From positions 9,624 through 73,623 of the forward strand of contig JBBSGK010000003.1 in the NCBI GenBank assembly GCA_038254115.1: 64,000 nucleotides of DNA, in the 5' to 3' direction. The DNA comes from Candidatus Levyibacteriota bacterium. GTDB taxonomy: Bacteria; Patescibacteriota; Microgenomatia; Levybacterales; UBA12049. A program made the position numbers and the translations under genes. Within the stretch, counting starts at the first letter, position 1. Each line of letters opens with the position of its first letter. Below the pieces are notes generated by a model. That model saw nothing but the letters and a program-made list of their open reading frames with translations. It was not told where the DNA came from and made no database searches. Positions 5,868 through 57,810 of this stretch are shown here, one piece after another.

Positions 5868-5913
5868 AATATTATGTGATTTAAGATTTATGATTCAAGA
5901 TTAAAGAATTCTT

Positions 5914-5964
5914 ATTGCCGACAGGCAATTCTTAAATCTTACTTCTTAAATCATTAATCTTCTA
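5914..5964. repeat. hairpin ATTGCC-GACA-GGCAAT followed by five tandem TCTTAAA-type heptamers in the rpsK-rpsD spacer, running into the rpsK stop
   Basis: TCTTAAA TCTTACT TCTTAAA TCATTAA TCTTCTA at 5930-5964. Confidence 0.65.
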
Positions 5965-6399: not shown

Positions 6400-6411
6400 A
6401 TGTTCCTTTCA

Positions 6412-6510
6412 GTCAAGTTTAAAATTCAAAGTTTAAAATGCAAAGTTATTTATTAAAATTTTTTAACTTTCAACAGCAACTTTTAACTTTTCACTTTGAA
6501 CTTTTAACTT
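6412..6510. repeat. inverted heptamer arrays (CAAAGTT-type left, AACTTTT/CACTTTG-type right) in the rpsM-rpsK spacer
   Basis: CAAGTTT AAAATTC AAAGTTT AAAATGC AAAGTTA ... CAACTTT TAACTTT TCACTTT GAACTTT TAACTT. Confidence 0.7.
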
Positions 6511-7396: not shown

Positions 7397-8161
7397 TCAA
7401 CTTGTTAATAAAAGCGGTCCGTTTTTTGTAATTGCAATTGAGCGCTCAAATAGACCTGCCATACTTCCATCTTTTGACCGAATTGTCCAGCCGTCATGAT
7501 CCAAAACCACATCTTTTAATCCCATATTGTAAATCACCTCCACCGCAATAGTCATACCTTCTTCCAGAAGCGGAGTTTTTTCTATTTTTCTATTTAAATA
7601 TCCTGGTACTTCCGGCTCTTCATGAAGCTCCCGTCCGACTCCGTGCCCGATCAAACTTCTTACGACTGAGTAGCCATTCTGTTTTTCGACAATGTCCTGA
7701 ATTGTTTTTGAAATATGCCCAACCCTGTTACCAATTACTGCCTGTTTTATTCCTTCCTCAAGCGCAAGTTTCCCAATCTCTAAAAACTTTTCTTCAGAGC
7801 TTTGAGCTTTGAGCTTTGAACTTTGAACTATTTTAGTTTCGGCCATATCGGTATGAAACCCTTTATAAAAAACGCCGCAGTCGACCCCTACAACATCTCC
7901 TTCTTTAAGTTTATAACTTCTCGGAATTCCGTGCACCACTGCATCGTTTGTGGACATGCAAATTGTGTGATGGTATCCTTTTACTCTTTTAAATCCTGAT
8001 TCCCCGCCTTTTTCTCTTATCAATTTCTCAGCCAAAATGTCTAGTTCTATTTCTGTAACGCCGGGCTTTATTGAGTCCATTACAGCAAATAAAACTTCAG
8101 ACAAAATATGTCCTCCGTGCTTCATTATTTCGATTTCCTGTTGCGACTTAATATCAATCAT
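7397..8161 (-). CDS. map: methionine aminopeptidase type I, carrying an in-frame heptamer-repeat insertion
   Basis: MetAP fold motifs (HGIP, GHGVG, metal ligands D/D/H/E/E); 4x TTTGARC tandem repeat at 7801-7828 encodes loop SSKLKAQSS. Confidence 0.9.
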   Translation of the reverse strand: MIDIKSQQEIEIMKHGGHILSEVLFAVMDSIKPGVTEIELDILAEKLIREKGGESGFKRVKGYHHTICMSTNDAVVHGIPRSYKLKEGDVVGVDCGVFYKGFHTDMAETKIVQSSKLKAQSSEEKFLEIGKLALEEGIKQAVIGNRVGHISKTIQDIVEKQNGYSVVRSLIGHGVGRELHEEPEVPGYLNRKIEKTPLLEEGMTIAVEVIYNMGLKDVVLDHDGWTIRSKDGSMAGLFERSIAITKNGPLLLTS

Positions 8162-23853: not shown

Positions 23854-25980
23854 TTACTCAACTCTTCCCGTAAATGTGGATTTTGCGAGGAGACCCTCGA
23901 CGATGTTTTTGGGGACTGGGTCATAGTGCGATGGCTCCATGTAGTAATGCGCTCTTCCCTGAGTCAAACTCCGAAGCTGTGTCGCATATCCTGAGAATTC
24001 TGCAAGCGGGACCATGGCCATGATAATCGTAGCTTTGTTTTTTTCTTCAGATCCCAAAATTTGCGCGCGCTTTGATGATAAATCTCCGATTACTTCTCCC
24101 ATGTATTCAGAAGGAGTTGTCACTTCAACCTTCATGATTGGTTCCAAAAGTGTAATTCCTGATTTTTTGGTGGCTGCTTGAATTGCTTGTGACGCTGCGA
24201 TTTTAAATGCAATTTCTGAGCTATCAACATCATGGTACGAGCCGTCGTAGCAAGTAACCTGCACATCAATCAACGGATATCCAAGAAGTACTCCATTCTC
24301 AAGTGTTTCTTTAGCTCCTTTTTCGACTGCTTTGACAAATTCGGCAGGAATGGCCCCACCTTTTATAGCATTAACAAACGAATAGCCCTCGCCTCTTGGT
24401 ACAGGTGAAACTCTCAGATAACAATGCCCGTATTGTCCGCGTCCTCCTGATTGCTTGATGTATTTTCCTTCAGCTTCAGCTTCCTGCTCAATTGTTTCTT
24501 TATATGCAACTTGTGGCGCTCCGACATTGGCCTCAACGCCAAACTCACGCTTCATCCTATCAACCATGATCTCAAGCTGCAATTCTCCAATTCCTGAAAT
24601 AATTGTTTGTCCTGTTTCGTGATTTGACTTAACAGAAAATGTCGGGTCTTCCTCAGTCAATCTTTTAATTGAGAACCCGAGTTTCTCCTGATCGGATTTT
24701 GTCTTTGGTTCAATAGCAAGTGAGATAACGGGCTCAGGGAAGGTGATCTGTTCAAGAACAATAGGCTTTGCCTCATCACAAAGAGTGTCTCCGGTTATTG
24801 TCTCTTTAAGACCAACAATCGCGACAATTTCACCGGCATATGCTTCTTTTATCTCCTCGCGGTTATTGGCATGCATCAGAAGAATCCTGCCTACCCGCTC
24901 TTTGACACCCTTTGTACTATTATATATGTATGATCCCGATACAAGCGTTCCCGAATAAACCCGGAAATATGAAAGCTTACCAACATGCGGGTCATTTTGG
25001 ATTTTAAAAGCAAGTCCTGAGAAAGGGGCATCAGGAACAAGTTGGCGGATTTCCTCGTCGCCCGTTTTTGGATTTTTTCCTTTTACTTCTTTCAAATCAA
25101 CAGGTGATGGAAGATAATCAACAACTGCATCCAAAAGAGGCTGGACTCCTTTATTTCTAAGACTTGTTCCTGCATAAATTGGGACGAGTTTATAATCAAT
25201 AACAGCTTGTCTTAATGCTTTTTTGAGCTCCTCGACTGTCGGCTCTTCACCTCCAAGGTATTTCTCCAAAAGCGTGTCATCAGTTTCTGAAATCTTCTCA
25301 ATCAATTTTGAGCGGTACTCCTCGACTTTATCCTTCAAATCCTCTGGTACTTCGTCTTTTACTTCATATTTTGCCCCCAACTCTTCTGAACCCCAAATAT
25401 ATGATTGGCGTGTGAGTAGATCAACATTTCCGACATATGTGTTTTCAGCACCAATCGGGATAACCATGATTGCGCAATTTGCGCCAAGTCTGTCCTCAAT
25501 AGTGCCAACAGTATAGAGAAAATCAGCACCGAGCTTATCCATTTTATTAACGAAACAAATTCTAGGCACTTTATATTTATCGGCTTGACGCCAGACTGTT
25601 TCTGATTGAGACTGGACTCCTTCTTCTGCATCCAAAACCGTAACTCCACCGTCAAGAACACGGAGAGATCTCTCAACTTCTGCTGTAAAATCAACGTGTC
25701 CCGGGGTATCGATAATGTTTATACGGTATGGATCAGTCGGGTTTTGTGAGTGTGTCCAGAAAGCAGTCGTTGCGGCTGACACAATAGTAATTCCGCGCTC
25801 TTTTTCCTGCTCCATCCAGTCCATCTGCGTATTTCCCTCGTCAATATCTCCGATTTTATAGGTTTTGCCGGTATAGAAAAGAATGCGCTCGGTAGTTGTG
25901 GTTTTACCGGCGTCAATATGGGCAATTATTCCGATGTTGCGGATCTTATCTAGTGGTACGTTTCGTGATTGCTCAGCCAT
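23854..25980 (-). CDS. fusA: elongation factor G
   Basis: [25 protein letters not shown]-motifs and EF-G domains II-V; start trimmed to ATG at 25978-25980 (MAEQSRN...); no rpsL/rpsG upstream. Confidence 0.95.
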
Positions 25981-25985
25981 AATAA

Positions 25986-26100
25986 AAAAGTTAAAAGTGC
26001 AAAGTGAAAAGTCCAAAGTTACAATGAAAAATTAAAAAACTCAACTTCAAACCGTAACTTTTAACTTTTAATTTTGAACCTTTAACTACTGAGAGTATAA
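25986..26100. repeat. inverted heptamer arrays (AAAAGTT AAAAGTG CAAAGTG AAAAGTC CAAAGTT ... AACTTTT AACTTTT AATTTTG AACCTTT) in the fusA leader; shares the 19-mer AAAGTGCAAAGTGAAAAGT with the 3193-3211 spacer
   Basis: read directly from the sequence. Confidence 0.7.
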
Positions 26101-31304: not shown

Positions 31305-32951
31305 GTGTCTAGTTTGCTGAAAACTCATAAAGCTGCCTTTGGTGTCGCTTTTCTTATATTAATCGGCGCGTTTCTCCGTTGCTATAATTTAAATTGGGGG
31401 GCTCCATTTTATTTCCATCCGGATGAGCGCAATATCGCATCAAGCATTACTCAGCTTGTATTCCCGACTCAGATGAACCCTCATTTTTTTGCATACGGCT
31501 CTTTGCCAATCTACATCATTTATTTTAGCGGTATGGTTACGAATTTTTTTTCTTCGTGTCACTTATCAATTACAAATTGCAAATTGTATAATGTCGAATT
31601 TGGGCACGCAATAATTATCAGCCGTTTTTATTCTGCTTTATTCTCCACCTTACTTATTCCTTTTATTTTTCTACTTGGAAAAAAAATGCACGGTCCCAAA
31701 ACAGGCCTTACAGCAGCTTTCCTTGCAACCTTTAGCGCAGGATTTATTCAGTTTGCCCACTTCGGAACCTTTGAAATGTGGCTTACATTTTTCAGTGTTC
31801 TCCTTTTTTGGTTTTGCCTTGAAGAATTAAATAAAAAAAATATCCATCACCTTTTTATTCTGCCAGCTATTTTTGCAATACTTTTGGCAATCAAAGTATC
31901 GTCCATTGCGCTACTGCCTCTTCCGCTTCTTATGATACTAATAAAAAAGCAAAACTCCTCCAAAAAACTTAAAGAGATAATTTTATTTATTGTTACTTTA
32001 TCGATAGTTTACGCAGTGACCAATCCTTTCGTCTTTTTGACAACACAAGAATTTCTCTCAAGTATAAGATATGAAGGCGGCGTTGTATTGGGCACGCTGG
32101 ACGTTTTCTACACACAATCTTTTTATAACACTATGCCAATAGTTTTCCAATTTCTCAATATTTTCCCATTTCTATTAAATCCTCTTTTTACTATTATATT
32201 CATCCCTGCCTTTTTTTATCTAATCTATAAAGGGATTAAAACAAAAAACCTATTGTTTTTATTTCTTATTTCTTACTTCTTACTTCTTTTCCTCCCCCAA
32301 GCTTTTCTTTTTGCGAAATGGACACGATACATGGTGCCGACATTGCCATTTATCTACCTTATAGTTGCAATAGCATCTATTGATTTTCTCAATATGTTAT
32401 CTAAATCCAAACGAGTATTTAGTATAAAGTATTTCGTATTAAGTATTTTCATATTGTTCACTATTGCATTCGGGATTTCTTATTTCATAACCGCATTTGT
32501 AAAACCTGATACCCGAATCGAAGCAGGCAAATTTACTCAAGCCAAAATCCAGCAAACCAGAAGAGTTTTGACTGAGCCTTATGACTTAGGAATAATCCCT
32601 TTCAATTCCCATCTCCAATATATTAACTCATTCAATTTCTACAATTTGGATCCAGAAAATAATGCTTTAAATGAAGAACTAAAAACAAAAATTTTCCAAT
32701 CTGACTATATTATATTACCAAGCCAAAGGCTTTTAAAATCCCGTTTATTAAATCCAAATAAATTCCGAAAAGGTCATGGAATTTACTCTTTATTAACAAA
32801 AGAGGCGCTTGGCTACCAAAAAATTTATGAAACACCTTGTGATATTTTCTGCAAAATCACTTACCTAAATAGTCCGGTTTTTTCATTTGAGGAGACAGCA
32901 AGTGTATTTGAAAGACCCACTGTTTTTATATTTAAAAAAGTTGCCAAATGA
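31305..32951 (+). CDS. GT-C superfamily membrane glycosyltransferase (ArnT/PMT, GT39/GT83-like)
   Basis: multi-TM; N-terminal NWGAPFYFHPDERNIAS loop paralogous to the next gene; start set at in-frame GTG 31305 because ORF-track start 31104 would overlap the convergent gene. Confidence 0.55.
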   Translation: MSSLLKTHKAAFGVAFLILIGAFLRCYNLNWGAPFYFHPDERNIASSITQLVFPTQMNPHFFAYGSLPIYIIYFSGMVTNFFSSCHLSITNCKLYNVEFGHAIIISRFYSALFSTLLIPFIFLLGKKMHGPKTGLTAAFLATFSAGFIQFAHFGTFEMWLTFFSVLLFWFCLEELNKKNIHHLFILPAIFAILLAIKVSSIALLPLPLLMILIKKQNSSKKLKEIILFIVTLSIVYAVTNPFVFLTTQEFLSSIRYEGGVVLGTLDVFYTQSFYNTMPIVFQFLNIFPFLLNPLFTIIFIPAFFYLIYKGIKTKNLLFLFLISYFLLLFLPQAFLFAKWTRYMVPTLPFIYLIVAIASIDFLNMLSKSKRVFSIKYFVLSIFILFTIAFGISYFITAFVKPDTRIEAGKFTQAKIQQTRRVLTEPYDLGIIPFNSHLQYINSFNFYNLDPENNALNEELKTKIFQSDYIILPSQRLLKSRLLNPNKFRKGHGIYSLLTKEALGYQKIYETPCDIFCKITYLNSPVFSFEETASVFERPTVFIFKKVAK

Positions 32952-34684
32952 AACTTATATTTTCAAAAGAAAAATTGATTTTATTCTTAATCCTAATTCT
33001 TGCCGCTTTTTTCCGCTTCTATAACGTCAATTGGGATGGCGGACACCAACTGCATCCTGACGAGAGGGCTATTGTCATGACAGTTGATAAGCTTCAAATT
33101 CCAAAAAACTTTTCTGATTTTTTGAGACCGGAAAGCTCGTGGAATCCGAAATTTTTTGCTTATGGTAGTTTTCCGATGTATCTACTTTTTGCTACAGGAA
33201 ACATTGCCGGTATTTTCAATCCGCTGCTTGCGCACTACGGTTCAATTAACCTAATCGGGCGGATACTCTCAGCTTTTGCGGATATTGTTACGGTTTTTTT
33301 GATTTTCAAAATTTCACGCAAACTTTTTAATTCCTCAATTGGTTACCTAGCAGCATTTTTTTATACTGTAAGCGTTCTACCCATTCAGCTTTCGCATTTT
33401 TTTGCTGTCGATACCTTATTAACCTGCTTTATAACTGCAACTCTTTATTTGCTGATCTTGTTTTATGAAAAACCCACATCTTATAAATCTCTCCTAATTG
33501 GTCTTTTTTTCGGCCTTGCGCTTGCCACCAAAATTAGCGCGCTGGTTTTATTGGTTTCAATAGGTACTGCGCTTATTGCCGATTTTATTCTGATTTTTAT
33601 AAAAAATCCCCATAAGCCAACGCATTGGTTGCCGAATTTGCCTGCTTTTTTAAAACACCTACTGCAATACGCGTTTCTTATTTTCTCAACTACTTTTATT
33701 GCTTTTATTTTTTTTGAGCCTTATGCCGTAATTGATTTTAAAAATTTTTGGGTCCAAACGCTCCAGCAATCGGCATTGACCAAGGATCCTTTTTACTTTC
33801 CATACACCCTTCAATATGTCGGTAAAATCCCCTATGCCTATGAATTCAAAAATGTTTTTCTTTGGGGACTTGGGCCAGTATTGGGAATACTAACGTTACT
33901 GGGAATGTTTTATTTTATTTATCTAAATTTTAAAAAAGGCCGGAGCCCACAGTTTACAAAGGCATTAATTATCTTAATATTTGTGGTTTCTTATGTTGCT
34001 GTTGTTGGCCGCTTTGCCGTTGGATTTATGCGCTATATGTTACCCGTATATCCTTTTTTTGCCCTCTTTGCATCTTTGCCCTCCTACCACTTTTATCAAA
34101 TTCTAAATAACCGCATAAAAAATATTTACACGCTTTTGGTTATTAGTTATTTGTTATTCGTTATTGTTTTAATCTGGCCTCTTAGCTTTATGCATATATA
34201 TAGCAAAAATAATACCAGAGTTGATGCCACTCTCTGGATAAATCAATTCATTCCGAAAGGCAAAACTGTGGCAATTGAACATTGGGACGATGGATTACCT
34301 CTGACTGATCAATCAAACTATAACATCCTTACATTGACTCTGTATGACCCTGATACGCAGCAAAAGTGGGAAACGATCAATCAACAGCTTAGGCATTCTG
34401 ACTACATAATTATAGCCTCAAATAGACTCTATACTCCTCTTCTGAGATTAACAGATTGTCAAGCACTACCACCTGATAGATGCTATCCTAAAACTTCTGC
34501 TTATTATAAAGATCTATTTGCTGAAAAACTTGGATTTCAAAAAGTTGCTGAATTCACAAACTATCCAACTGTTCCTATGCTAAATCTTCCTATAGATGAT
34601 CAGGTTGCAGACGAATCTTTTACTGTCTACGATCATCCAAAAGTAATGATCTTTCAAAAAACTGCCTCTCGTAGTAGAATATAG
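32948..34684 (+). CDS. GT-C superfamily membrane glycosyltransferase, paralogue of the preceding gene
   Basis: 578 aa, >10 TM; YNVNWDGGHQLHPDERAIVM loop motif; 4-nt overlap with upstream gene. Confidence 0.55.
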   Translation: MKLIFSKEKLILFLILILAAFFRFYNVNWDGGHQLHPDERAIVMTVDKLQIPKNFSDFLRPESSWNPKFFAYGSFPMYLLFATGNIAGIFNPLLAHYGSINLIGRILSAFADIVTVFLIFKISRKLFNSSIGYLAAFFYTVSVLPIQLSHFFAVDTLLTCFITATLYLLILFYEKPTSYKSLLIGLFFGLALATKISALVLLVSIGTALIADFILIFIKNPHKPTHWLPNLPAFLKHLLQYAFLIFSTTFIAFIFFEPYAVIDFKNFWVQTLQQSALTKDPFYFPYTLQYVGKIPYAYEFKNVFLWGLGPVLGILTLLGMFYFIYLNFKKGRSPQFTKALIILIFVVSYVAVVGRFAVGFMRYMLPVYPFFALFASLPSYHFYQILNNRIKNIYTLLVISYLLFVIVLIWPLSFMHIYSKNNTRVDATLWINQFIPKGKTVAIEHWDDGLPLTDQSNYNILTLTLYDPDTQQKWETINQQLRHSDYIIIASNRLYTPLLRLTDCQALPPDRCYPKTSAYYKDLFAEKLGFQKVAEFTNYPTVPMLNLPIDDQVADESFTVYDHPKVMIFQKTASRSRI

Positions 34685-35736: not shown

Positions 35737-36312
35737 ATGAATATTGGTTTTGATTTAGATAAAATTTTTATTGATTATCCGCCTTTTGTGTCACCCCGTG
35801 TAATGGACAAACTTTATAAAAAGAAGGACAACGGCGTACTGCTTTATAGAATCCCGTCTTACCCTGAGCAGCTATTAAGACGCGCATCTCACATGCCATT
35901 TCTTAGGCCTGCAATTAAACAAAATTTGGAGTTTCTAAGAAGAATTTCTAAAAAAGATAATAAGCTCTATCTTATATCTAGCCGTTTTAAGTTCCTCGAG
36001 AAACGTACTGCCAAGCTCATAAAGCGGTACGAATTAGATCAAATATTTGATGAGATGTTTTTTAACTATGCCAACTTTCAGCCCCATATCTTCAAGCAGG
36101 AAATTATCAACAACTTGAATCTTGATATCTATGTGGATGATGACCTTTCTTTAATAAGGCACGCAGCAAAAACTAATGTTAAAACTAAATTCTTCTGGCT
36201 AAATACTTTCGGGGAAAAACATATTTTGCCCCAAAACATATTCGAAATCTCAACACTCGAAGAAATATTTAAATTACAAAATCAGAAATCCGAATATCGA
36301 AATCCGAAATAA
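35737..36312 (+). CDS. HAD-superfamily-like hydrolase (tentative)
   Basis: N-terminal GFDLDKIF resembles HAD motif I (DxD); YVDDD near C-terminus resembles motif IV; 3' end encoded by a CCGAAAT heptamer array. Confidence 0.35.
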   Translation: MNIGFDLDKIFIDYPPFVSPRVMDKLYKKKDNGVLLYRIPSYPEQLLRRASHMPFLRPAIKQNLEFLRRISKKDNKLYLISSRFKFLEKRTAKLIKRYELDQIFDEMFFNYANFQPHIFKQEIINNLNLDIYVDDDLSLIRHAAKTNVKTKFFWLNTFGEKHILPQNIFEISTLEEIFKLQNQKSEYRNPK

Positions 36313-53466: not shown

Positions 53467-54969
53467 ATGGAACATCTCCTTTTTTACCTTTTAATCCTCT
53501 TTTTACCGACACAACTGGGTCTTCATTTTTGGCCAAACTTTTCATCCGTCTTGGGAATACGGGTTGATTACCTCTCCCCCACTGTTTACGTTACTGATGT
53601 CCTAGTAGGTTTATTGATTATTAGTTGGGTATTTAGAAAGTTAAGTAGCAGATATTCAAGGAACTCAAAACTCAAAACTCCAAAGTCAAAATTACAATTC
53701 AAAATTCAAAATTATTGGCCGATTTTAATGTGGTTATTAGTTATCGGTTATTTGTTATTAGTTGTTCTTTTATCCCGCAGGATAGAAGGCGGGCTGTATA
53801 GTCTACTCAAATTCATAGAAATGTCCTTTGTAGCTTATTACACAGCCAAATTTATAGACTTCACGAAAGCATTCCAAAAAATAATTATTCTTTTGTCTTT
53901 TGGTGTAATCAGTGAATCAGCTATCGCTATTTTTCAATTTATTTTTCAGGGATCAATCGGCGGCCAACTTTATTATTTGGGAGAGCGGAGTTTTACTTCT
54001 TCAACCCCAGGAATCGCAAACGCCTCGCTAAATGGAGAGCTTGTTCTTCGTCCCTACGGCACATTCCCCCATCCAAATGTGCTTGCAGGCTATTTAGTGG
54101 TTACAATGATATTGATCTTGTTTTCACTGAGCTTTCGAAAAGCTAATAAAGAATTAAGAATTAAGAATAGAGAATTAAGGCTTATGAAAAGTATGTCTCC
54201 CGCCGTAATTCGTAATTCGTTATTCATAATTCAAGTAACTGCTCTTGTTCTTGGCACAATAGCGCTGTTTTTAACAATGAGCAGAGTGGCGACACTGATA
54301 TGGATATTAATTGCTACTTACTTCTTTTTTAAATTGTCATTCCGAGCACTTCGACTTCGCTCAGCATTAACTCCGCCGAGAAATCTCGTTAATTCTAAAC
54401 TTGTCAAAAATAGATCCCTCCATGCATTTCATTTAGTCGGGATGACAATAGTTTTATTATTGGCAATTTTTTTCTTTACCCCGCTTGGCTACAGGTTTAC
54501 AAATATTAGAAGCGGTGACGAAGCAATTGTTCAGAGACAAATGTTAATAGATAGCTCAATAAAAATGATAAAAACTAGTCCCCTACTTGGGGTAGGCTTA
54601 GGAAATTTTATTCCTACCCTTGCAAAAATTCAAAAACCACTATCTCTTGGATTATATCTTCAACCTGTACACAATATATTTTTACTTGTAGCAGCAGAGA
54701 CTGGATTAATAGGACTAGGATTTTTCACGTGGTTCTTGTGGAAGACGTATAAAAGAATTAAGAAGCATGCTTCGCTCCCGCTCAGCACAAGCGAATTAAG
54801 AATAAAGGAAAGTTTAGTATTAGGGCTAAGTACTATTCTAGTCCTTGGTCTATTTGATCACTACTGGCTTACTCTTCAGCAGGGACAACTTTTTATTGCC
54901 TTTATTATTGGTCTTTGCTGGACAAATTCCAAACAGAAAGCTTCCACCCCCGTGAGTAGAAAAATTTAG
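53467..54969 (+). CDS. O-antigen ligase-like (Wzy_C/WaaL family) polytopic membrane protein with heptamer-repeat-encoded basic loops
   Basis: about 12 TM; C-terminal Wzy_C-like block RSGDEAIVQRQMLIDSSIKMIKTSPLLGVGLGNF...QPVHNIFLLVAAETGLIGLGFF; start moved from ORF-track 53377 (repeat-encoded) to ATG 53467. Confidence 0.6.
   Translation: MEHLLFYLLILFLPTQLGLHFWPNFSSVLGIRVDYLSPTVYVTDVLVGLLIISWVFRKLSSRYSRNSKLKTPKSKLQFKIQNYWPILMWLLVIGYLLLVVLLSRRIEGGLYSLLKFIEMSFVAYYTAKFIDFTKAFQKIIILLSFGVISESAIAIFQFIFQGSIGGQLYYLGERSFTSSTPGIANASLNGELVLRPYGTFPHPNVLAGYLVVTMILILFSLSFRKANKELRIKNRELRLMKSMSPAVIRNSLFIIQVTALVLGTIALFLTMSRVATLIWILIATYFFFKLSFRALRLRSALTPPRNLVNSKLVKNRSLHAFHLVGMTIVLLLAIFFFTPLGYRFTNIRSGDEAIVQRQMLIDSSIKMIKTSPLLGVGLGNFIPTLAKIQKPLSLGLYLQPVHNIFLLVAAETGLIGLGFFTWFLWKTYKRIKKHASLPLSTSELRIKESLVLGLSTILVLGLFDHYWLTLQQGQLFIAFIIGLCWTNSKQKASTPVSRKI
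53662..53710 (+). repeat. in-frame coding heptamer array AACTCAA x2, AACTCCA, AAGTCAA, AATTACA, ATTCAAA x2 inside the O-antigen-ligase-like gene (encodes NSKLKTPKSKLQFKIQN loop)
   Basis: 7 consecutive heptamers. Confidence 0.7.
54149..54231 (+). repeat. two further in-frame heptamer arrays in the same gene: AAGAATT x4 (54149-54176) and CGTAATT CGTAATT CGTTATT CATAATT (54204-54231)
   Basis: encode KELRIKNRELRL and AVIRNSLFII. Confidence 0.7.
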
Positions 54970-55125
54970 AAAGATTATCTTGTCAGGACAATCCATTCTA
55001 GTATTTTTTATTAATATCCCAACCTGTTACTCAATATTTTTTGCATCTAGCAACATGAAAACAAGTTTATAAAACATTAAACTTATCACTTATAACTTCC
55101 CTTTGTTTGTTGTATTATTAAGGAA

Positions 55126-57810
55126 GTGAAACAGGACCGCCCACACCTTATTGCAAGCGAGGAAAACAACAGTCTGCCGATATTAATTATTGACAAAAAA
55201 GGCATTATCGGCACTGCCTTGGCAAACAAGCTAAAAGATCAATTCCTGGTTGTACTGGTGAGCGGTAAGCAGCTGGAATTTCATAACAATATAGTCCATA
55301 TCCCCTACCGCAAGAAAATTCCTGTAATTCCGGACAACTCTTATTCACACATTTTTGTTTTTTATCACGGCGAGGAAGAGATTTTGGAAATACTTTTACC
55401 TCTTATTAAGAAAGCAAATGAAACAGCCGCCCGGTTATTTTTCTTTGCAAGTTTGATAAATAGCAGCGAGCAGCTTTTTAGGCGTTTGTCCAATCATGCT
55501 TATCACAGGACAAAAGTTGTTTTATACGGGGAGGTATTTGATGAAAAGATCCAGAACCCAAATATGGTAAATCTTTTCATCCATCAGGCACGAACATATG
55601 GGCGGGTTGTGATACCAAATGAAGGAATAGGGAAATTATATCCGATCTATCTTGAAGATTTATTAATCGTTATTGTCGCTGCTTCGTTCTCGATGGAGGC
55701 AAAAGGAGGAAATCTTTTTGTTTTCCCACGCCACCCGTTTACAGAAATTACAGTTGCCCGGGTTTTTCAAAAAATAAATCCTGATCTTAAAATAGATTTT
55801 AGTAAAAGAAGGATCCGAAATTATAACTACTACATTCCGGCAGTTGGTGATTACGCTTTTACCAATTACAACTTGGAGGAAGGGCTTAAGAAAATAAATA
55901 TATCTTCATCAAATACGGCATCGTTTGCGCCGGAAAAAAGCATCTCTCTTCCAAGACAGAAAATCAATTATAATAAGAAGTTTTTTTTACTGTTGCTTGT
56001 TGCGCTTTTACTACTGCCCATTCTGTTTGTTTTATTGACAGCGGGAGCGGGGGCATCTTTTGTTTCCCAATCAATTAAACAGGCAGAAAAAGGCAATTTT
56101 CAGTCAGCAAGCAGGCTTGGTACATATGGAAGTGTTGCTTTTAATGCTGCCTCGGCGATTGGGGGAGCCTATTTGCCGGGTGAGATCATCGCAAAGGAAG
56201 CAAAAGATAAGTTTGTCGGCAATCTTAGAACAGGAAAAGAAGTTGCAGATATAGAATCAGATTTATTCAAGTCCGCAAGCACCTTTTCAGACATATACAA
56301 AAATAAAGGTGCAAATATATCCAAAGAAGATTTTGTCAGGGCTCTGGCAAATATAAAAAATAATCTCCTTAAGATAGATCAAATGAAAGCGCAAGATCAA
56401 CTGCCCAAAGATTTTCAAGATAAGCTTAATAAAGAAAGTTATATGTTAACAACTCTTGAAAACACGATAGATTCGTTACCTCAAATTCTGGGGTTTGTTG
56501 GGAAAAAGCAATACCTGGTACTTTTTCAAAATAATATGGAGCTAAGGCCGGGTGGGGGATTTATCGGATCATACGCAATTTTAGCGGTTGAAAAAGGAAG
56601 GATTGAAAAATTTGAAATACATGATGTTTATGACGCGGACGGCAAATTGAAGACCCATATTGAGCCACCCTATGGCCTGAGACGTTACGGAGGGGTATCA
56701 CATTGGTTTTTGCGGGATAGCAACTTTGACGTTGATTTCACGACAAATGCTGCGGCAGCAGCTGATATCCTAAAGCGTGAAACAAATGAGCGGGTAGACG
56801 GCGTAATCGCGCTTGACACCAATTTCATAAAAAACATTTTGGAATCCGTTGGCCCTGTTGAGGTAGTAGATTATAAAGAGCAAGTGAGCGCTGCCAATTT
56901 TTATTTGCTGACTCAAAAGCATGCAGAGGACAATTTCTTTGCCGGGTCAACTCAAAAAAAAGATTTCCTAAGATCGCTTATGAGCAGCATGCTCTCCTCG
57001 TTTAGCGCAAATAAAGATATATCATACATAGATCTTTCAAAGCAGGTTGAAAAATCTCTCAAGGAAAAACACATCCTTTTTGCTTTTGCAAGCCCTGCAT
57101 TACAAAAGGTTTTTACAGTTAATAGCTTGTCGGGTGCGCTTTATGACGCCCGAGCTAAAAAGGAGAATTCAATTCAGGACTTTTTGGGGACATCGGATGC
57201 AAATATAGGGGCTAATAAAGATAATTATTATCTCAAACGTTCCATATCTCAAAACACAACGATAACAGAAAGTGGGGGAGTCACCGAGGAGGTGGCAATT
57301 AATTATATAAACACAAGTACAAAAGGAAGTGTTTTCGGGGGGGATTACAAAAATTATCTCCGCTTTATTTTGCCCAAAGGATCGGAGCTTAAGTCAATTA
57401 AGATTGACGGTCAGGATAAAGCTTTCATAGTAGCAGTGACAAATCCTTCTCAGTTCGGCGCGTCCGGTTATGTTCCCCCACAAGAACTGGAAGTTGAAAC
57501 TACAGAGGCAGGCGGCAAAGAAGTTATAGCGTTTCTGTTGATGGTCCCACAGCTTACAAGTAGGCAAGTGACAATTTCTTACACAATTCCGGAGAGTGTT
57601 AATCTCAATAATCCATCCTTTTCTTATGACTTAAGGGTCACCAAGCAGCCGGGAACCGACACGGATCCTTATGCGTTTAGCCTTTCATATCCATCAAGGT
57701 TCAAGCCAATCGGGCTCGGCAAGGACATTGTGGATCTGGGTGGAAAAGTAACACATGAGACAAATCTGAGCGAGGATAGGAATATAAGAATAAACTTCTC
57801 CCAGAAATAA
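55126..57810 (+). CDS. large membrane protein: N-terminal Rossmann-like cytoplasmic domain, single TM, extracytoplasmic DUF4012-like domain
   Basis: 894 aa; TM FFLLLLVALLLLPILFVLL; MELRPGGGFIGSYAIL...HWFLRDSNFDVDFTTNAAAAADIL...VDGVIALDTNFI resembles DUF4012. Confidence 0.5.
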   Translation: MKQDRPHLIASEENNSLPILIIDKKGIIGTALANKLKDQFLVVLVSGKQLEFHNNIVHIPYRKKIPVIPDNSYSHIFVFYHGEEEILEILLPLIKKANETAARLFFFASLINSSEQLFRRLSNHAYHRTKVVLYGEVFDEKIQNPNMVNLFIHQARTYGRVVIPNEGIGKLYPIYLEDLLIVIVAASFSMEAKGGNLFVFPRHPFTEITVARVFQKINPDLKIDFSKRRIRNYNYYIPAVGDYAFTNYNLEEGLKKINISSSNTASFAPEKSISLPRQKINYNKKFFLLLLVALLLLPILFVLLTAGAGASFVSQSIKQAEKGNFQSASRLGTYGSVAFNAASAIGGAYLPGEIIAKEAKDKFVGNLRTGKEVADIESDLFKSASTFSDIYKNKGANISKEDFVRALANIKNNLLKIDQMKAQDQLPKDFQDKLNKESYMLTTLENTIDSLPQILGFVGKKQYLVLFQNNMELRPGGGFIGSYAILAVEKGRIEKFEIHDVYDADGKLKTHIEPPYGLRRYGGVSHWFLRDSNFDVDFTTNAAAAADILKRETNERVDGVIALDTNFIKNILESVGPVEVVDYKEQVSAANFYLLTQKHAEDNFFAGSTQKKDFLRSLMSSMLSSFSANKDISYIDLSKQVEKSLKEKHILFAFASPALQKVFTVNSLSGALYDARAKKENSIQDFLGTSDANIGANKDNYYLKRSISQNTTITESGGVTEEVAINYINTSTKGSVFGGDYKNYLRFILPKGSELKSIKIDGQDKAFIVAVTNPSQFGASGYVPPQELEVETTEAGGKEVIAFLLMVPQLTSRQVTISYTIPESVNLNNPSFSYDLRVTKQPGTDTDPYAFSLSYPSRFKPIGLGKDIVDLGGKVTHETNLSEDRNIRINFSQK

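What the first reader, a model, noticed from the sequence alone, without database searches (positions are those of the whole stretch)
53662..54231. Heptamer repeat arrays inserted in-frame into coding sequences, generating lysine/arginine-rich loops
The O-antigen-ligase-like gene contains three separate 7-nt tandem arrays:
- AACTCAA-type x7
- AAGAATT x4
- CGTAATT x4

Each array is 28-49 nt, so not a multiple of 3 on its own. All are still read through in frame, encoding basic inter-helix loops (SRNSKLKTPKSKLQFKIQN, KELRIKNRELRL, AVIRNSLFII).

The same is seen elsewhere:
- in map (7801-7828; 4x TTTGARC, whose coding-strand complement AGYTCAA matches the AAYTCAA units here; encodes SSKLKAQSS)
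- at the 3' end of the HAD-like gene (36283-36310; CCGAAAT x4)

So the intergenic repeat family appears to colonise coding sequence. Because 7 is not divisible by 3, gain or loss of a single unit would frameshift the gene. These are candidate phase-variation or contingency sites.
Basis: seen in the sequence. Interest (0 to 1): 0.65.

Follow-up and report, generated by a model that had tools for sequence, protein, structure and literature searches.

The report
Translated heptamer repeats in membrane-protein loops
Short 7-base tandem repeats that fill the gaps between genes in this Levybacteria (CPR) genome also sit in frame in tolerant loops of proteins, where related species have kept them for a long time, and nothing found here shows them acting as on/off switches.

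Summary
The Wzy_C/WaaL-like gene (53467-54969) carries the three reported heptamer arrays plus at least two more, and all are read through in frame. Period 7 is the only enriched repeat period in the window: 14 arrays, against 0-1 at other non-harmonic periods and 0 in shuffles.

- **Not genome-specific.** Orthologues at 50-60% identity carry orthologous arrays in the same loops, and 80 Levybacteria/Microgenomates loci show a 14-fold excess inside this gene. The map array is likewise shared by orthologues at 70-83% identity.
- **No sign of switching.** About 20 sets of near-identical strain variants and 19 contigs of one clone showed no unit-number change. 126 of 129 genes are open through the matched region. 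One frame break maps to an array region but is ambiguous. Arrays also sit in map, which is normally essential.

My reading is that these are slippage-born heptanucleotide microsatellites, often in inverted pairs. They persist in spacers and in permissive protein regions.
- **A-rich arrays** give Lys-rich, disordered loops that are probably cytoplasmic.
- **T-rich arrays** give transmembrane-helix sequence.

Units evolve in concert, and the arrays are landing pads for small GC-rich hairpin elements. I class this as a new variant of known heptamer repeats and of in-frame repeat elements.

The parts
53467..54969 (+). Wzy_C / WaaL-like polytopic membrane protein gene, the host of the arrays. The start may instead be GTG 53377.
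   Evidence: Pfam PF04932, E=3e-14. AlphaFold model with pLDDT 73; best PDB match is WaaL 7tpg, E=1.3e-4. The ORF is intact. Orthologues start at MKIKNY, which corresponds to about 53419.
53665..53713 (+). Array 1: AAYTCAA/TCAAAAT, 7.1 copies, A-rich. It encodes SKLKTPKSKLQFKIQNY, the loop after the helix at residues 42-67.
   Evidence: TRF. Kyte-Doolittle -1.19. Model residues 69-80 are coil with pLDDT below 50. Orthologous and of equal length in L001 and L002; units evolve in concert.
53733..53763 (+). Array GTTATTA, 4.4 copies, T-rich. It encodes WLLVIGYLLLV inside a transmembrane helix.
   Evidence: TRF. Kyte-Doolittle +2.66. Helix 83-103 in the model. L001 has the same array at the same place.
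54145..54179 (+). Array 2: AATTAAG, 5 copies, A-rich. It encodes NKELRIKNRELR and forms the left arm of an inverted pair.
   Evidence: TRF. Kyte-Doolittle -1.93. pLDDT below 50 for most of residues 226-244. Orthologous in L001, L003 and L004.
54204..54232 (+). Array 3: CGTAATT, 4.1 copies. It is the right arm, roughly the reverse complement of array 2, and encodes AVIRNSLFIIQ at the start of the next helix.
   Evidence: TRF. Folding 54138-54238 gives dG -20.5 (+ strand) and -20.8 (- strand), z -2.5 and -3.9. Orthologues give z -2.0 to -3.6. Kyte-Doolittle +1.25.
54333..54449 (+). 117-nt in-frame element (39 codons) with 13-nt terminal inverted repeats ATTGTCATTCCGA / TCGGGATGACAAT. It is absent from L001.
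   Evidence: Inverted repeat, 92% complementary. Gap in L001 and different inserts in L002-L004. Contains CTTCGACTTCGCTCAG, shared with elements in other loci.
54754..54812 (+). C-terminal-loop heptamer array (GAATTAA type), interrupted by a 27-nt GC-rich element at 54766-54792.
   Evidence: Sequence. The alignment shows (GGCAAAT)4 in L001/L003 and (GTCAGAA)4 in L004 at this site. The motif CTTCGN5GCTCAG occurs twice in the window against 0.02 expected.
53347..53432 (+). Upstream arrays AATTTTC (53347-53373) and AAATTAA (53413-53432). They lie in the leader or in an N-terminal extension.
   Evidence: TRF. The upstream sequence is conserved in L002 and L004.
7797..7826 (-). Array in map (methionine aminopeptidase). 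The coding-strand unit is AGYTCAA, 4.3 copies, and it encodes QSSKLKAQSS in a surface loop.
   Evidence: TRF, 95% matches. +4 aa against PDB methionine aminopeptidases. The same array is present in orthologues at 70-83% identity.
36279..36310 (+). Array AAATCCG, 4.6 copies, encoding the last 11 codons (QNQKSEYRNPK*) of ORF 35737-36312.
   Evidence: TRF and translation. The ORF runs into an array at the gene boundary.
5868..5961 (-). Intergenic hairpin module between rpsK and rpsD: two inverted heptamer arrays around a small palindrome.
   Evidence: Fold z -5.7 (+ strand) and -5.2 (- strand). The syntenic spacer in relative L155 is 3 nt, so this is a filled versus an empty site.
6400..6508 (-). 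Intergenic hairpin module between rpsM and rpsK (AAAAGTT / AACTTTT arms).
   Evidence: Fold z -6.5 on the transcribed (-) strand. The syntenic spacer in L155 is 3 nt.
25980..26095 (-). Hairpin module upstream of fusA (AAAAGTT / AACTTTT arms).
   Evidence: Fold dG -32.1, z -6.2 on the - strand.
32259..32448 (+). Two arrays (TTACTTC at 32259-32288 and AGTATTT at 32414-32448) inside a PMT_2 membrane glycosyltransferase gene. A further GTTATTA array lies at 34139-34165 in the neighbouring PMT_2 gene.
   Evidence: TRF. Pfam PF13231. The encoded peptides are hydrophobic, Kyte-Doolittle +1.4 to +2.9.

Best explanation
The arrays are heptanucleotide microsatellites of a class found across Candidatus Levybacteria and related Microgenomates.

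**Origin and persistence.** They arise at the DNA level. This is inferred to happen by replication slippage or template switching, often producing inverted pairs that can fold into hairpins. They persist wherever extra sequence is tolerated, which means short intergenic spacers and permissive parts of proteins.

**What they encode.** Inside genes only frame-preserving versions survive, and the genetic code decides the product.
- A-rich arrays give Lys/Asn/Gln/Ser/Ile-rich, net-positive, disordered linkers. In this protein they lie in loops that I infer to be cytoplasmic.
- T-rich arrays give Leu/Ile/Phe/Val stretches that extend transmembrane helices.

This is why polytopic glycan enzymes (Wzy_C, PMT_2) collect them.

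**Evolution.** Once fixed, the arrays are inherited vertically for long periods at nearly constant length. Their units are homogenised within each species, probably by out-of-register conversion or compensated slippage. They also act as landing pads for small GC-rich hairpin elements of 24-45 nt.

**Role.** In this genome they act as tolerated or mildly useful linker sequence, not as rapid on/off switches.

**Shown:** periodicity, enrichment, orthology, length stability, concerted unit change, nested insertions, and the link between array composition and peptide hydropathy.

**Inferred:** the slippage origin, the cytoplasmic location of the loops, neutrality, and the conversion mechanism.
For: - **Periodicity.** Only period 7 and its harmonic are enriched, in the window, in 80 genome loci (79 arrays against 10 or fewer at any other non-harmonic period) and in 74 metagenome loci (46 against 12 or fewer).
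- **Location.** 13 of 26 window arrays lie in the 7% of the DNA that is non-coding. Density is 0.59 per kb inside Wzy genes and 0.041 per kb in their flanks. Arrays fall in three main zones of the gene plus a minor one (3 arrays), and none lies in the conserved core.
- **Orthology and length stability.** The loop-1 array has equal length in the window, L001 and L002, with indels of 6 and 18 nt in L003 and L004. A (TTAATAC)n array keeps a constant length over 10 species at 70-85% DNA identity.
- **Concerted evolution.** Units are AACTCAA x3 (window), AAATCAA x3 (L001), AGATCAA x3 (L003) and AACTTAA x3 (L004). At one site the array is (GGCAAAT)4 in L001/L003 and (GTCAGAA)4 in L004. The map array has AGCTCAA x3 in the window against AGTTCAA in L155.
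- **No strain-level change in unit number**. 126 of 129 genes are open through the matched region.
- **Coding outcome.** Across 63 in-gene arrays, Spearman rho is -0.92 between A-T skew and hydropathy. A-rich arrays encode 30% K+R and 5% D+E. The array-coded loops are low-confidence coil in the model.
- **Filled and empty sites.** Spacer modules are present here but absent in L155. A 45-nt insert sits in a loop-1 array in one strain and not in another. A 24-nt insert lies inside the map array of L155. The motif CTTCGN5GCTCAG is nested in arrays in several species.
- **Literature.** Heptameric repeats are over-represented in many bacteria, and a polymerase-footprint slippage hypothesis has been proposed (PMC4692102).
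Against: - The 14-fold concentration in a surface-glycan enzyme, and the many perfect 4-5-unit arrays in other species, could mean that mutability itself is selected.
- Concerted evolution shows that unit-level events do occur.
- One genome (L053) has a frame break that maps to an array region.
- The strain-level sample is small and consists of assembly consensus sequences, which hide minority variants.
- No data exist for a close relative of this genome. The nearest orthologues are 59% (Wzy) and 83% (map) identical.
- Hairpin potential is kept across four orthologues, which leaves room for a structural role.
Confidence: 0.6

Rival explanations
1. Contingency loci. Slippage by one heptamer unit switches the Wzy_C gene, and perhaps the PMT_2 genes, ON and OFF. 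This would vary a surface glycan in a population of episymbiotic CPR cells.
For: - A unit length of 7 forces a frameshift with each single-unit change.
- The gene class is typical of phase-variable genes. Known precedents with heptamers in coding sequence are neuO and, from my own knowledge, Neisseria pglE.
- Arrays are 14 times denser in this gene than in its flanks, and many species carry perfect 4-5-unit tracts.
- Concerted evolution implies unit turnover.
- The L053 frame break lies where both reading frames are open, within the (GAATCAA)3 array region.
Against: - The window's arrays are short (4-7 units) and imperfect (81-86% matches).
- No unit-number difference appeared in about 45 near-identical protein variants, six near-identical contig pairs and 19 contigs of one clone.
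- Only 1 of 129 genes has a frame break that maps to an array region. That locus also carries a small inserted element that could be the cause.
- neuO, by comparison, shows 3-53 units and 65.6% OFF genomes.
- There are several arrays per gene, some near the 3' end.
- The same kind of array sits in map, which is normally essential and cannot be switched off.
Confidence: 0.13
2. Functional nucleic-acid structure. The inverted array pairs are selected as RNA (or DNA) hairpins. Between genes they would work as REP-like stabilisers or processing sites. Within the Wzy_C mRNA they would act as pause or structure elements that help co-translational membrane insertion.
For: - Intergenic modules fold far better than shuffled sequence (z -5.2 to -6.5). 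Two are more stable on the transcribed strand, which is consistent with G-U pairs.
- The in-gene pair at 54138-54238 has z -2.5 and -3.9, and its orthologues keep z -2.0 to -3.6.
Against: - Array 1 and its neighbouring array do not pair (z about 0).
- Many arrays are unpaired.
- Arm complementarity is loose and shifts register between orthologues.
- The modules are absent from the same spacers in a relative.
- No terminator-like sites fall on the arrays, and there is no Rfam match.
- Many orthologues lack the loop-2 pair altogether.
- No covariation test was possible.
Confidence: 0.12
3. Mobile modules. The array pairs (and the arrays in loops) are non-autonomous mobile elements inserted as whole units. 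They would resemble Rickettsia palindromic elements, not sequences grown in place by slippage.
For: - Filled and empty sites exist for whole spacer modules of 94-109 nt.
- The loop-2 module is present in some orthologues and absent in others.
- A 45-nt insert differs between strains.
- The in-gene pair is similar in size (about 95 nt) to the spacer modules.
Against: - The arrays have many unrelated unit sequences and no shared ends, target duplications or consensus.
- Arrays at a given site are orthologous and old.
- No transposase candidate was linked to them.
- The clearly mobile parts are the small GC-rich elements nested in the arrays, not the arrays themselves.
Confidence: 0.1
4. Protein-level selection. 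The loops are selected as Lys-rich low-complexity linkers (positive-inside rule), and the 7-nt periodicity is incidental.
For: A-rich arrays encode 30% K+R and only 5% D+E. They sit between predicted helices.
Against: - Selection on codons would produce periods that are multiples of 3, not 7.
- The same arrays fill non-coding spacers.
- The concerted unit changes alter different amino acids in each frame.
Confidence: 0.03

Closest known systems
Over-represented heptanucleotide repeats in bacteria: cyanobacterial STRR repeats and Xanthomonas/Nostoc GGGAATC-type repeats (Mazel 1990 and Mrazek 2007, as cited in PMC4692102)
   Same: Unit length is 7. Arrays are short tandem runs, mostly intergenic, and some form inverted pairs able to make stem-loops. 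Array length and sequence differ between related species. Function is unknown, and a slippage origin has been proposed.
   Different: Here the units are AT-rich and of many kinds rather than one or three consensus units. The host is a CPR phylum. Many arrays are translated in frame and have been kept at the same protein loops across a phylum.
Phase-variable heptanucleotide tracts within coding sequence: E. coli K1 neuO (AAGACTC)n (PMC13001214) and Neisseria pglE (CAAACAA)n (from my own knowledge)
   Same: Heptamer repeats lie inside the coding sequence of a surface-glycan-modifying enzyme. All three frames are read, which gives a 7-residue peptide period. A single-unit change shifts the frame.
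   Different: neuO tracts are perfect, range from 3 to 53 units, differ between strains, and are OFF in 65.6% of genomes. Here tracts are 4-7 imperfect units, do not vary among near-identical strains, are almost always in frame, occur several per gene, and also occur in map, which is normally essential.
Rickettsia palindromic elements and other repeat elements fused in frame to genes (Ogata 2000; review PMC3184786)
   Same: Hairpin-forming repeat DNA, typical of intergenic regions, is also found in frame inside protein genes at tolerant surface positions, where it is kept and translated.
   Different: Rickettsia palindromic elements are families of about 105-146 bp, each with a defined sequence. 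The arrays here are tandem heptamers with no shared sequence. Only the nested GC-rich mini-elements and the 117-nt inverted-repeat element resemble the Rickettsia elements or miniature inverted-repeat transposable elements.
Nostoc small dispersed repeats nested in tandem heptamers (Elhai et al. 2008, Genome Res 18:1484). This rests on my own recollection of the paper; the text was not held and the reference was confirmed only in the reference list seen.
   Same: Very small hairpin elements (21-27 nt in Nostoc, 24-45 nt here) are found nested inside heptamer arrays and inside protein-coding genes. Insertions can be seen as filled versus empty sites.
   Different: The phylum and the element sequence differ (here the motif is CTTCGN5GCTCAG). 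Mobility here is inferred from a few filled and empty sites only.

Membership tests
Repeat-based contingency locus (phase variation) | A long, (near-)perfect repeat tract within or upstream of a gene | tested here: not met
   The window arrays have 4.1-7.1 units at 81-86% matches. Other species do carry perfect tracts of 4-5 units, but these are still short next to the 3-53 units of neuO.
Repeat-based contingency locus (phase variation) | Unit-number polymorphism between closely related strains or within populations | tested here: not met
   No change in heptamer unit number was seen in 19 clusters at 90% identity or more, six contig pairs at 96-99.99% identity, or 19 contigs of one clone. The evidence is consensus sequence only; read-level data could not be tested.
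Repeat-based contingency locus (phase variation) | A sizeable fraction of alleles out of frame (OFF) because of whole-unit changes | tested here: not met
   126 of 129 genes are open through the matched region. One frame break (L053) maps to an array region but is ambiguous, and another (L135) is a 16-nt deletion outside any array.
Repeat-based contingency locus (phase variation) | The gene is dispensable and conditionally advantageous (surface or restriction functions) | tested here: inconclusive
   Wzy_C and PMT_2 fit this description. The same kind of array also sits in map, which is normally essential.
Heptanucleotide repeat class (STRR-like) | Tandem arrays with a 7-nt unit, specifically over-represented relative to other periods | tested here: met
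Heptanucleotide repeat class (STRR-like) | Predominantly intergenic location | tested here: met
   13 of 26 arrays lie in 7.3% of the window. There is also an unusually large coding fraction concentrated in a few genes.
Heptanucleotide repeat class (STRR-like) | One or a few genome-wide consensus units (STRR1-3, GGGAATC) | tested here: not met
   At least 15 different unit sequences occur in the window. AAAAGTT is the commonest, at 5-6 arrays.
In-frame selfish repeat elements (like Rickettsia palindromic elements or miniature inverted-repeat elements) | A dispersed family with a shared sequence and ends (terminal inverted repeats) | tested here: not met
   The arrays share no sequence. The feature is met only by the nested elements: 13-nt terminal inverted repeats at 54333-54449 and the motif CTTCGN5GCTCAG in 8 places.
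In-frame selfish repeat elements (like Rickettsia palindromic elements or miniature inverted-repeat elements) | Filled versus empty sites between relatives, with insertions inside ORFs preserving the frame | tested here: met
   Spacer modules, a 45-nt insert, a 24-nt insert and a 117-nt insert. All of the inserts that lie inside ORFs are multiples of 3.
Wzy_C / O-antigen ligase superfamily (host gene) | Pfam Wzy_C domain and a WaaL-like polytopic fold | tested here: met
   PF04932, 53.5 bits against a cut-off of 31.7. Foldseek best match is WaaL 7tpg_B, E=1.3e-4. Substrate and activity cannot be tested here.

The most novel reading that the evidence does not exclude
Heptamer arrays, together with the mini-hairpin elements that nest in them, could be an active, phylum-wide DNA-level generator of protein sequence in CPR bacteria. 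A-rich arms would supply positively charged cytoplasmic linkers, and T-rich arms would supply transmembrane-helix material. Together they would repeatedly remodel the loops of surface-glycan enzymes. Concerted unit turnover would then be the trace of a slow, low-rate form of contingency switching that consensus assemblies cannot show.
Probability: 0.15. Interest if true: 0.7.

Novelty: new variant of a known kind. Interest (0 to 1): 0.5.

Why it matters
- **Annotation.** A simple DNA-level repeat process has written parts of conserved proteins across a whole candidate phylum. Recurring peptides such as SKIKNQKSK, ISNFKFQ and MANGKWQ are products of DNA repeats, not protein motifs, and should be treated that way.
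- **Membrane proteins.** The link between array composition and peptide hydropathy gives a concrete route by which non-coding repeat DNA becomes loop and helix sequence in membrane proteins.
- **A parallel with cyanobacteria.** The link between heptamer arrays and nested mini-elements, previously reported in cyanobacteria, now has a counterpart in CPR bacteria.
- **A testable candidate.** If read-level data did reveal unit-number variation, these would be candidate phase-variable surface genes in CPR bacteria. My literature searches found no earlier report of heptamer repeats in Patescibacteria.

Tried and rejected
- **Close relatives for polymorphism.** None exist for this genome; the best orthologues are 59% (Wzy) and 83% (map) identical. 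The single metagenome scan, using P0013, missed that species (best 46%) and gave only other lineages. I used their near-identical pairs instead.
- **Apparent truncation in L002.** A 372-aa annotated protein suggested a frameshift, but the ORF is intact at 536 aa.
- **Known RNA families.** There is no Rfam match in the window at gathering thresholds.
- **Intrinsic terminators or promoters at the arrays.** None fall on the arrays, and counts are near the shuffle expectation.
- **Programmed ribosomal frameshifting on heptamers.** Rejected, because every array is read through in one open frame.
- **Coiled-coil heptads from 21-nt periods.** Rejected, because the arrays encode only 9-16 residues and are modelled as coil.
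- **A single repeat family.** Rejected, because the units are diverse.
- **An exact pattern for the L155-type mini-element.** It matched only L155 itself. A looser motif worked.
- **The Elhai 2008 paper.** The text was not held.
Full report
**1. The observation**

The window is a 39.5% GC genome fragment. It holds a ribosomal-protein operon and the cluster yidD-yidC-jag-Wzy_C-DUF4012. The nearest relatives are Candidatus Levybacteria, in the Microgenomates group of the CPR.

Tandem Repeats Finder confirms the three reported arrays in the Wzy_C gene:
- 53665-53713: 7.1 copies, 81% matches.
- 54145-54179: 5.0 copies, 82%.
- 54204-54232: 4.1 copies, 86%.

It also confirms the map array (7797-7826) and the array at the 3' end of ORF 35737-36312. 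In addition it finds a fourth array in the gene (53733-53763). Twenty-six of its 67 rows have period 7.

With a uniform sliding test, period 7 gives 14 arrays, its harmonic 14 gives 7, and every other period from 4 to 15 gives 0-1. A stricter detector gives 6 arrays at period 7, against 0 in 30 third-order Markov shuffles. All coding arrays lie in intact ORFs.

One detail is wrong. The third array encodes a hydrophobic helix start (AVIRNSLFIIQ, Kyte-Doolittle +1.25), not a basic loop.

**2. The arrays are not specific to this genome**

A protein search found about 3,000 homologues, the closest at 59% identity. In the alignment, orthologues at 50-60% identity carry the same repeat-encoded peptides at the same places. 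Examples are SKIKNQKSKLQFKIQNH, which is (TCAAAAA)n read in three frames, then KELRIKN.../KVLSIKYKVLS..., and ...IHNSYFLI.

At the DNA level the loop-1, loop-2 and C-terminal-loop arrays of the window, L001, L002, L003 and L004 align unit for unit. Their length is equal in the window, L001 and L002. The indels in L003 and L004 are 6 and 18 nt, which are multiples of 3 and not of 7.

Across 80 species-representative loci, period-7 arrays number 79, against 10 or fewer at any other non-harmonic period.
- Their density is 0.59 per kb inside the Wzy gene and 0.041 per kb in the 3-kb flanks.
- They fall at offsets 130-270, 550-800 and 1044-1274 nt, plus a minor cluster of 3 arrays at 321-339.
- None lies in the conserved core.

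The map array behaves the same way. It adds 4 residues relative to PDB methionine aminopeptidases. It is nonetheless shared as QSSK[LF]K[AV]QSS by orthologues at 70-83% identity, and it aligns at the DNA level in L155 and L156.

**3. Test of the contingency idea**

The benchmark is neuO, a known heptamer switch inside a coding sequence. Its tracts range from 3 to 53 units, and 65.6% of 64 genomes are OFF (PMC13001214). The data here look different:
- Nineteen clusters of variants at 90% identity or more (about 45 sequences) show no change in array length. The single internal indel is a 15-residue insertion.
- Contig pairs at 96-99.99% identity have identical arrays.
- Nineteen contigs of one clone encode the identical protein, and the five fetched loci are identical at the DNA level.
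- An orthologous (TTAATAC)n array keeps a constant length over 10 species at 70-85% DNA identity and changes only by point substitution.
- 126 of 129 near-full-length genes are open through the matched region.

Three loci fell below the coverage threshold.
- **L053:** the frame break lies where both frames are open, within a (GAATCAA)3 array region. A small inserted element lies beside it and could equally be the cause.
- **L135:** it has a 16-nt deletion outside any array.
- **L074:** it falls only marginally short (97% covered).

Arrays of the same kind also sit in map, which is normally essential and cannot serve as a switch. The caveats are that all of this evidence is assembly consensus, and that no close relative of this genome exists in the collections.

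**4. What the arrays do show**

*Concerted evolution.* Within each species the units share derived bases.
- Loop 1 has AACTCAA x3 in the window, AAATCAA x3 in L001, AGATCAA x3 in L003 and AACTTAA x3 in L004.
- One site has (GGCAAAT)4 in L001/L003 and (GTCAGAA)4 in L004.
- The map array has AGCTCAA x3 in the window, where L155 has AGTTCAA.

Unit-level copying therefore happens over evolutionary time with no net change in length. In an essential gene this argues for conversion-like events rather than a frameshifted intermediate. That step is inference.

*Composition decides the peptide.* For 63 in-gene arrays, A-T skew on the coding strand predicts hydropathy (Spearman rho -0.92).
- A-rich arrays encode 30% K+R and 5% D+E.
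- T-rich arrays encode hydrophobic stretches (window arrays).

In the AlphaFold model (pLDDT 73, WaaL-like) the A-rich arrays are low-confidence coil between helices (residues 69-80 and 226-244). The T-rich arrays lie in helices. A cytoplasmic location for the Lys-rich loops follows from helix counting and the positive-inside rule, and is also inference.

This compatibility explains why 8-9 of the 13 arrays that overlap genes in the window sit in three polytopic glycan enzymes (Wzy_C and two PMT_2 genes).

*Inverted pairs.* Several intergenic arrays form long, periodically mismatched hairpins with z-scores of -5.2 to -6.5. Two are more stable on the transcribed strand.
- The in-gene pair at 54138-54238 is weaker, with z -2.5 and -3.9. 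Its orthologues keep z -2.0 to -3.6.
- Array 1 has no pairing partner.
- The spacer modules between rpsM and rpsK and between rpsK and rpsD (109 and 94 nt) are absent from a relative, where the same spacers are 3 nt.
- No terminator-like site falls on the arrays, and there is no Rfam match.

*Nested small elements.*
- A 24-nt element sits inside the map array of L155.
- A 27-nt element splits the window's C-terminal-loop array.
- A 45-nt insert distinguishes two near-identical strains within a loop-1 array.
- A 117-nt element with 13-nt inverted ends lies at 54333-54449.
- The motif CTTCGN5GCTCAG occurs twice in the window, against 0.02 expected. Both copies are in these inserts. It occurs six more times in other loci, and four of those lie within Wzy genes at array-bearing loops.
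- Every insert inside an ORF is a multiple of 3 in length.

**5. Comparison with what is known**

- **Heptameric repeats in bacteria.** They are known to be over-represented in many genomes. A polymerase-footprint slippage explanation has been proposed, and Nostoc and Xanthomonas have intergenic arrays, some of them inverted (PMC4692102).
- **In-frame repeat elements.** These are known from Rickettsia and other bacteria (PMC3184786).
- **Small dispersed repeats nested in heptamers.** These were described in Nostoc (Elhai 2008). I rely on my own recollection of that paper, because the text was not held. Its reference was confirmed only through another paper's reference list.
- **Patescibacteria.** Searches for heptamer repeats or in-frame palindromic elements in this group found nothing.

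The case here combines these known kinds in a new setting:
- The units are AT-rich and diverse.
- The arrays occur across a whole phylum.
- They have been kept for a long time at the same protein loops.
- Array composition links systematically to membrane-protein sequence.

**6. Verdict**

The finding is real and statistically robust. The claim that the intergenic repeat class colonises coding sequence is supported. The claim of lineage-specific insertion is refuted at the level of this genome. The phase-variation reading is not supported by the data available, but it has not been excluded at the level of sequencing reads.

Noticed in passing
window 54333-54449: A 117-nt in-frame insertion (39 codons) in the Wzy_C gene with 13-nt terminal inverted repeats (ATTGTCATTCCGA / TCGGGATGACAAT). 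L001 lacks it, and L002-L004 carry different inserts at the same place. It resembles a miniature inverted-repeat element.
   Followed up: partly
window 54349-54364 and 54770-54785; L006 3197, L046 3213, L053 4202, L084 693, L056 1508, L155 6952: The GC-rich motif CTTCGN5GCTCAG marks small elements. It occurs twice in the window against 0.02 expected. In several species these elements are nested inside heptamer arrays of Wzy loops, and in others they lie in spacers. This looks like a dispersed mini-element family across Levybacteria.
   Followed up: partly
window 5868-5961 and 6400-6508, compared with L155 11635-11637 and 12073-12075: Whole heptamer-hairpin modules fill the rpsK-rpsD and rpsM-rpsK spacers here, while the same spacers are 3 nt in the relative OY970292. 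These are clear filled versus empty sites within a conserved operon.
   Followed up: partly
L162 versus L163, about 555-600: Two strains with almost identical Wzy genes differ by a 45-nt in-frame insert inside the loop-1 heptamer array. The insert consists of a GC-rich mini-hairpin plus about three extra units.
   Followed up: yes
L116 versus L118, at about 7320: Contigs that are 99.99% identical differ by a 112-nt indel downstream of the Wzy gene. It may be another small mobile element.
   Followed up: no
L156 1449-1478, 5087-5125, 6092-6133; L040 4397-4429: Intergenic arrays of (CCTAAAA)n or (CCCTAAA)n. The second unit is the same as the plant-type telomere repeat, which is probably a coincidence. 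In L156 three spacers of the ribosomal operon carry the same unit.
   Followed up: no
L155 341-1092 and 1410-2383: In the relative OY970292 the ribosomal protein genes L2, L22 and S3 are called in fragments. This suggests indel errors in that assembly, so frameshifts seen in assemblies like it are weak evidence for phase variation.
   Followed up: no
window 53377-53469: The start of the Wzy_C gene is uncertain. The frame is open from GTG 53377, while orthologues start at MKIKNY, where the window has TTA (about 53419). The first ATG is at 53467. The stretch in question is itself built of heptamer repeats.
   Followed up: partly
window 1-64000: No Rfam family reached its gathering score anywhere in the 64 kb, on either strand, so no RNA gene was detected.
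   Followed up: no
window 51832-57810; L157-L163: The gene order yidD-yidC-jag(KH/R3H)-Wzy_C-DUF4012 is conserved in distant Levybacteria, which places this glycan enzyme next to the membrane-insertion genes.
   Followed up: no
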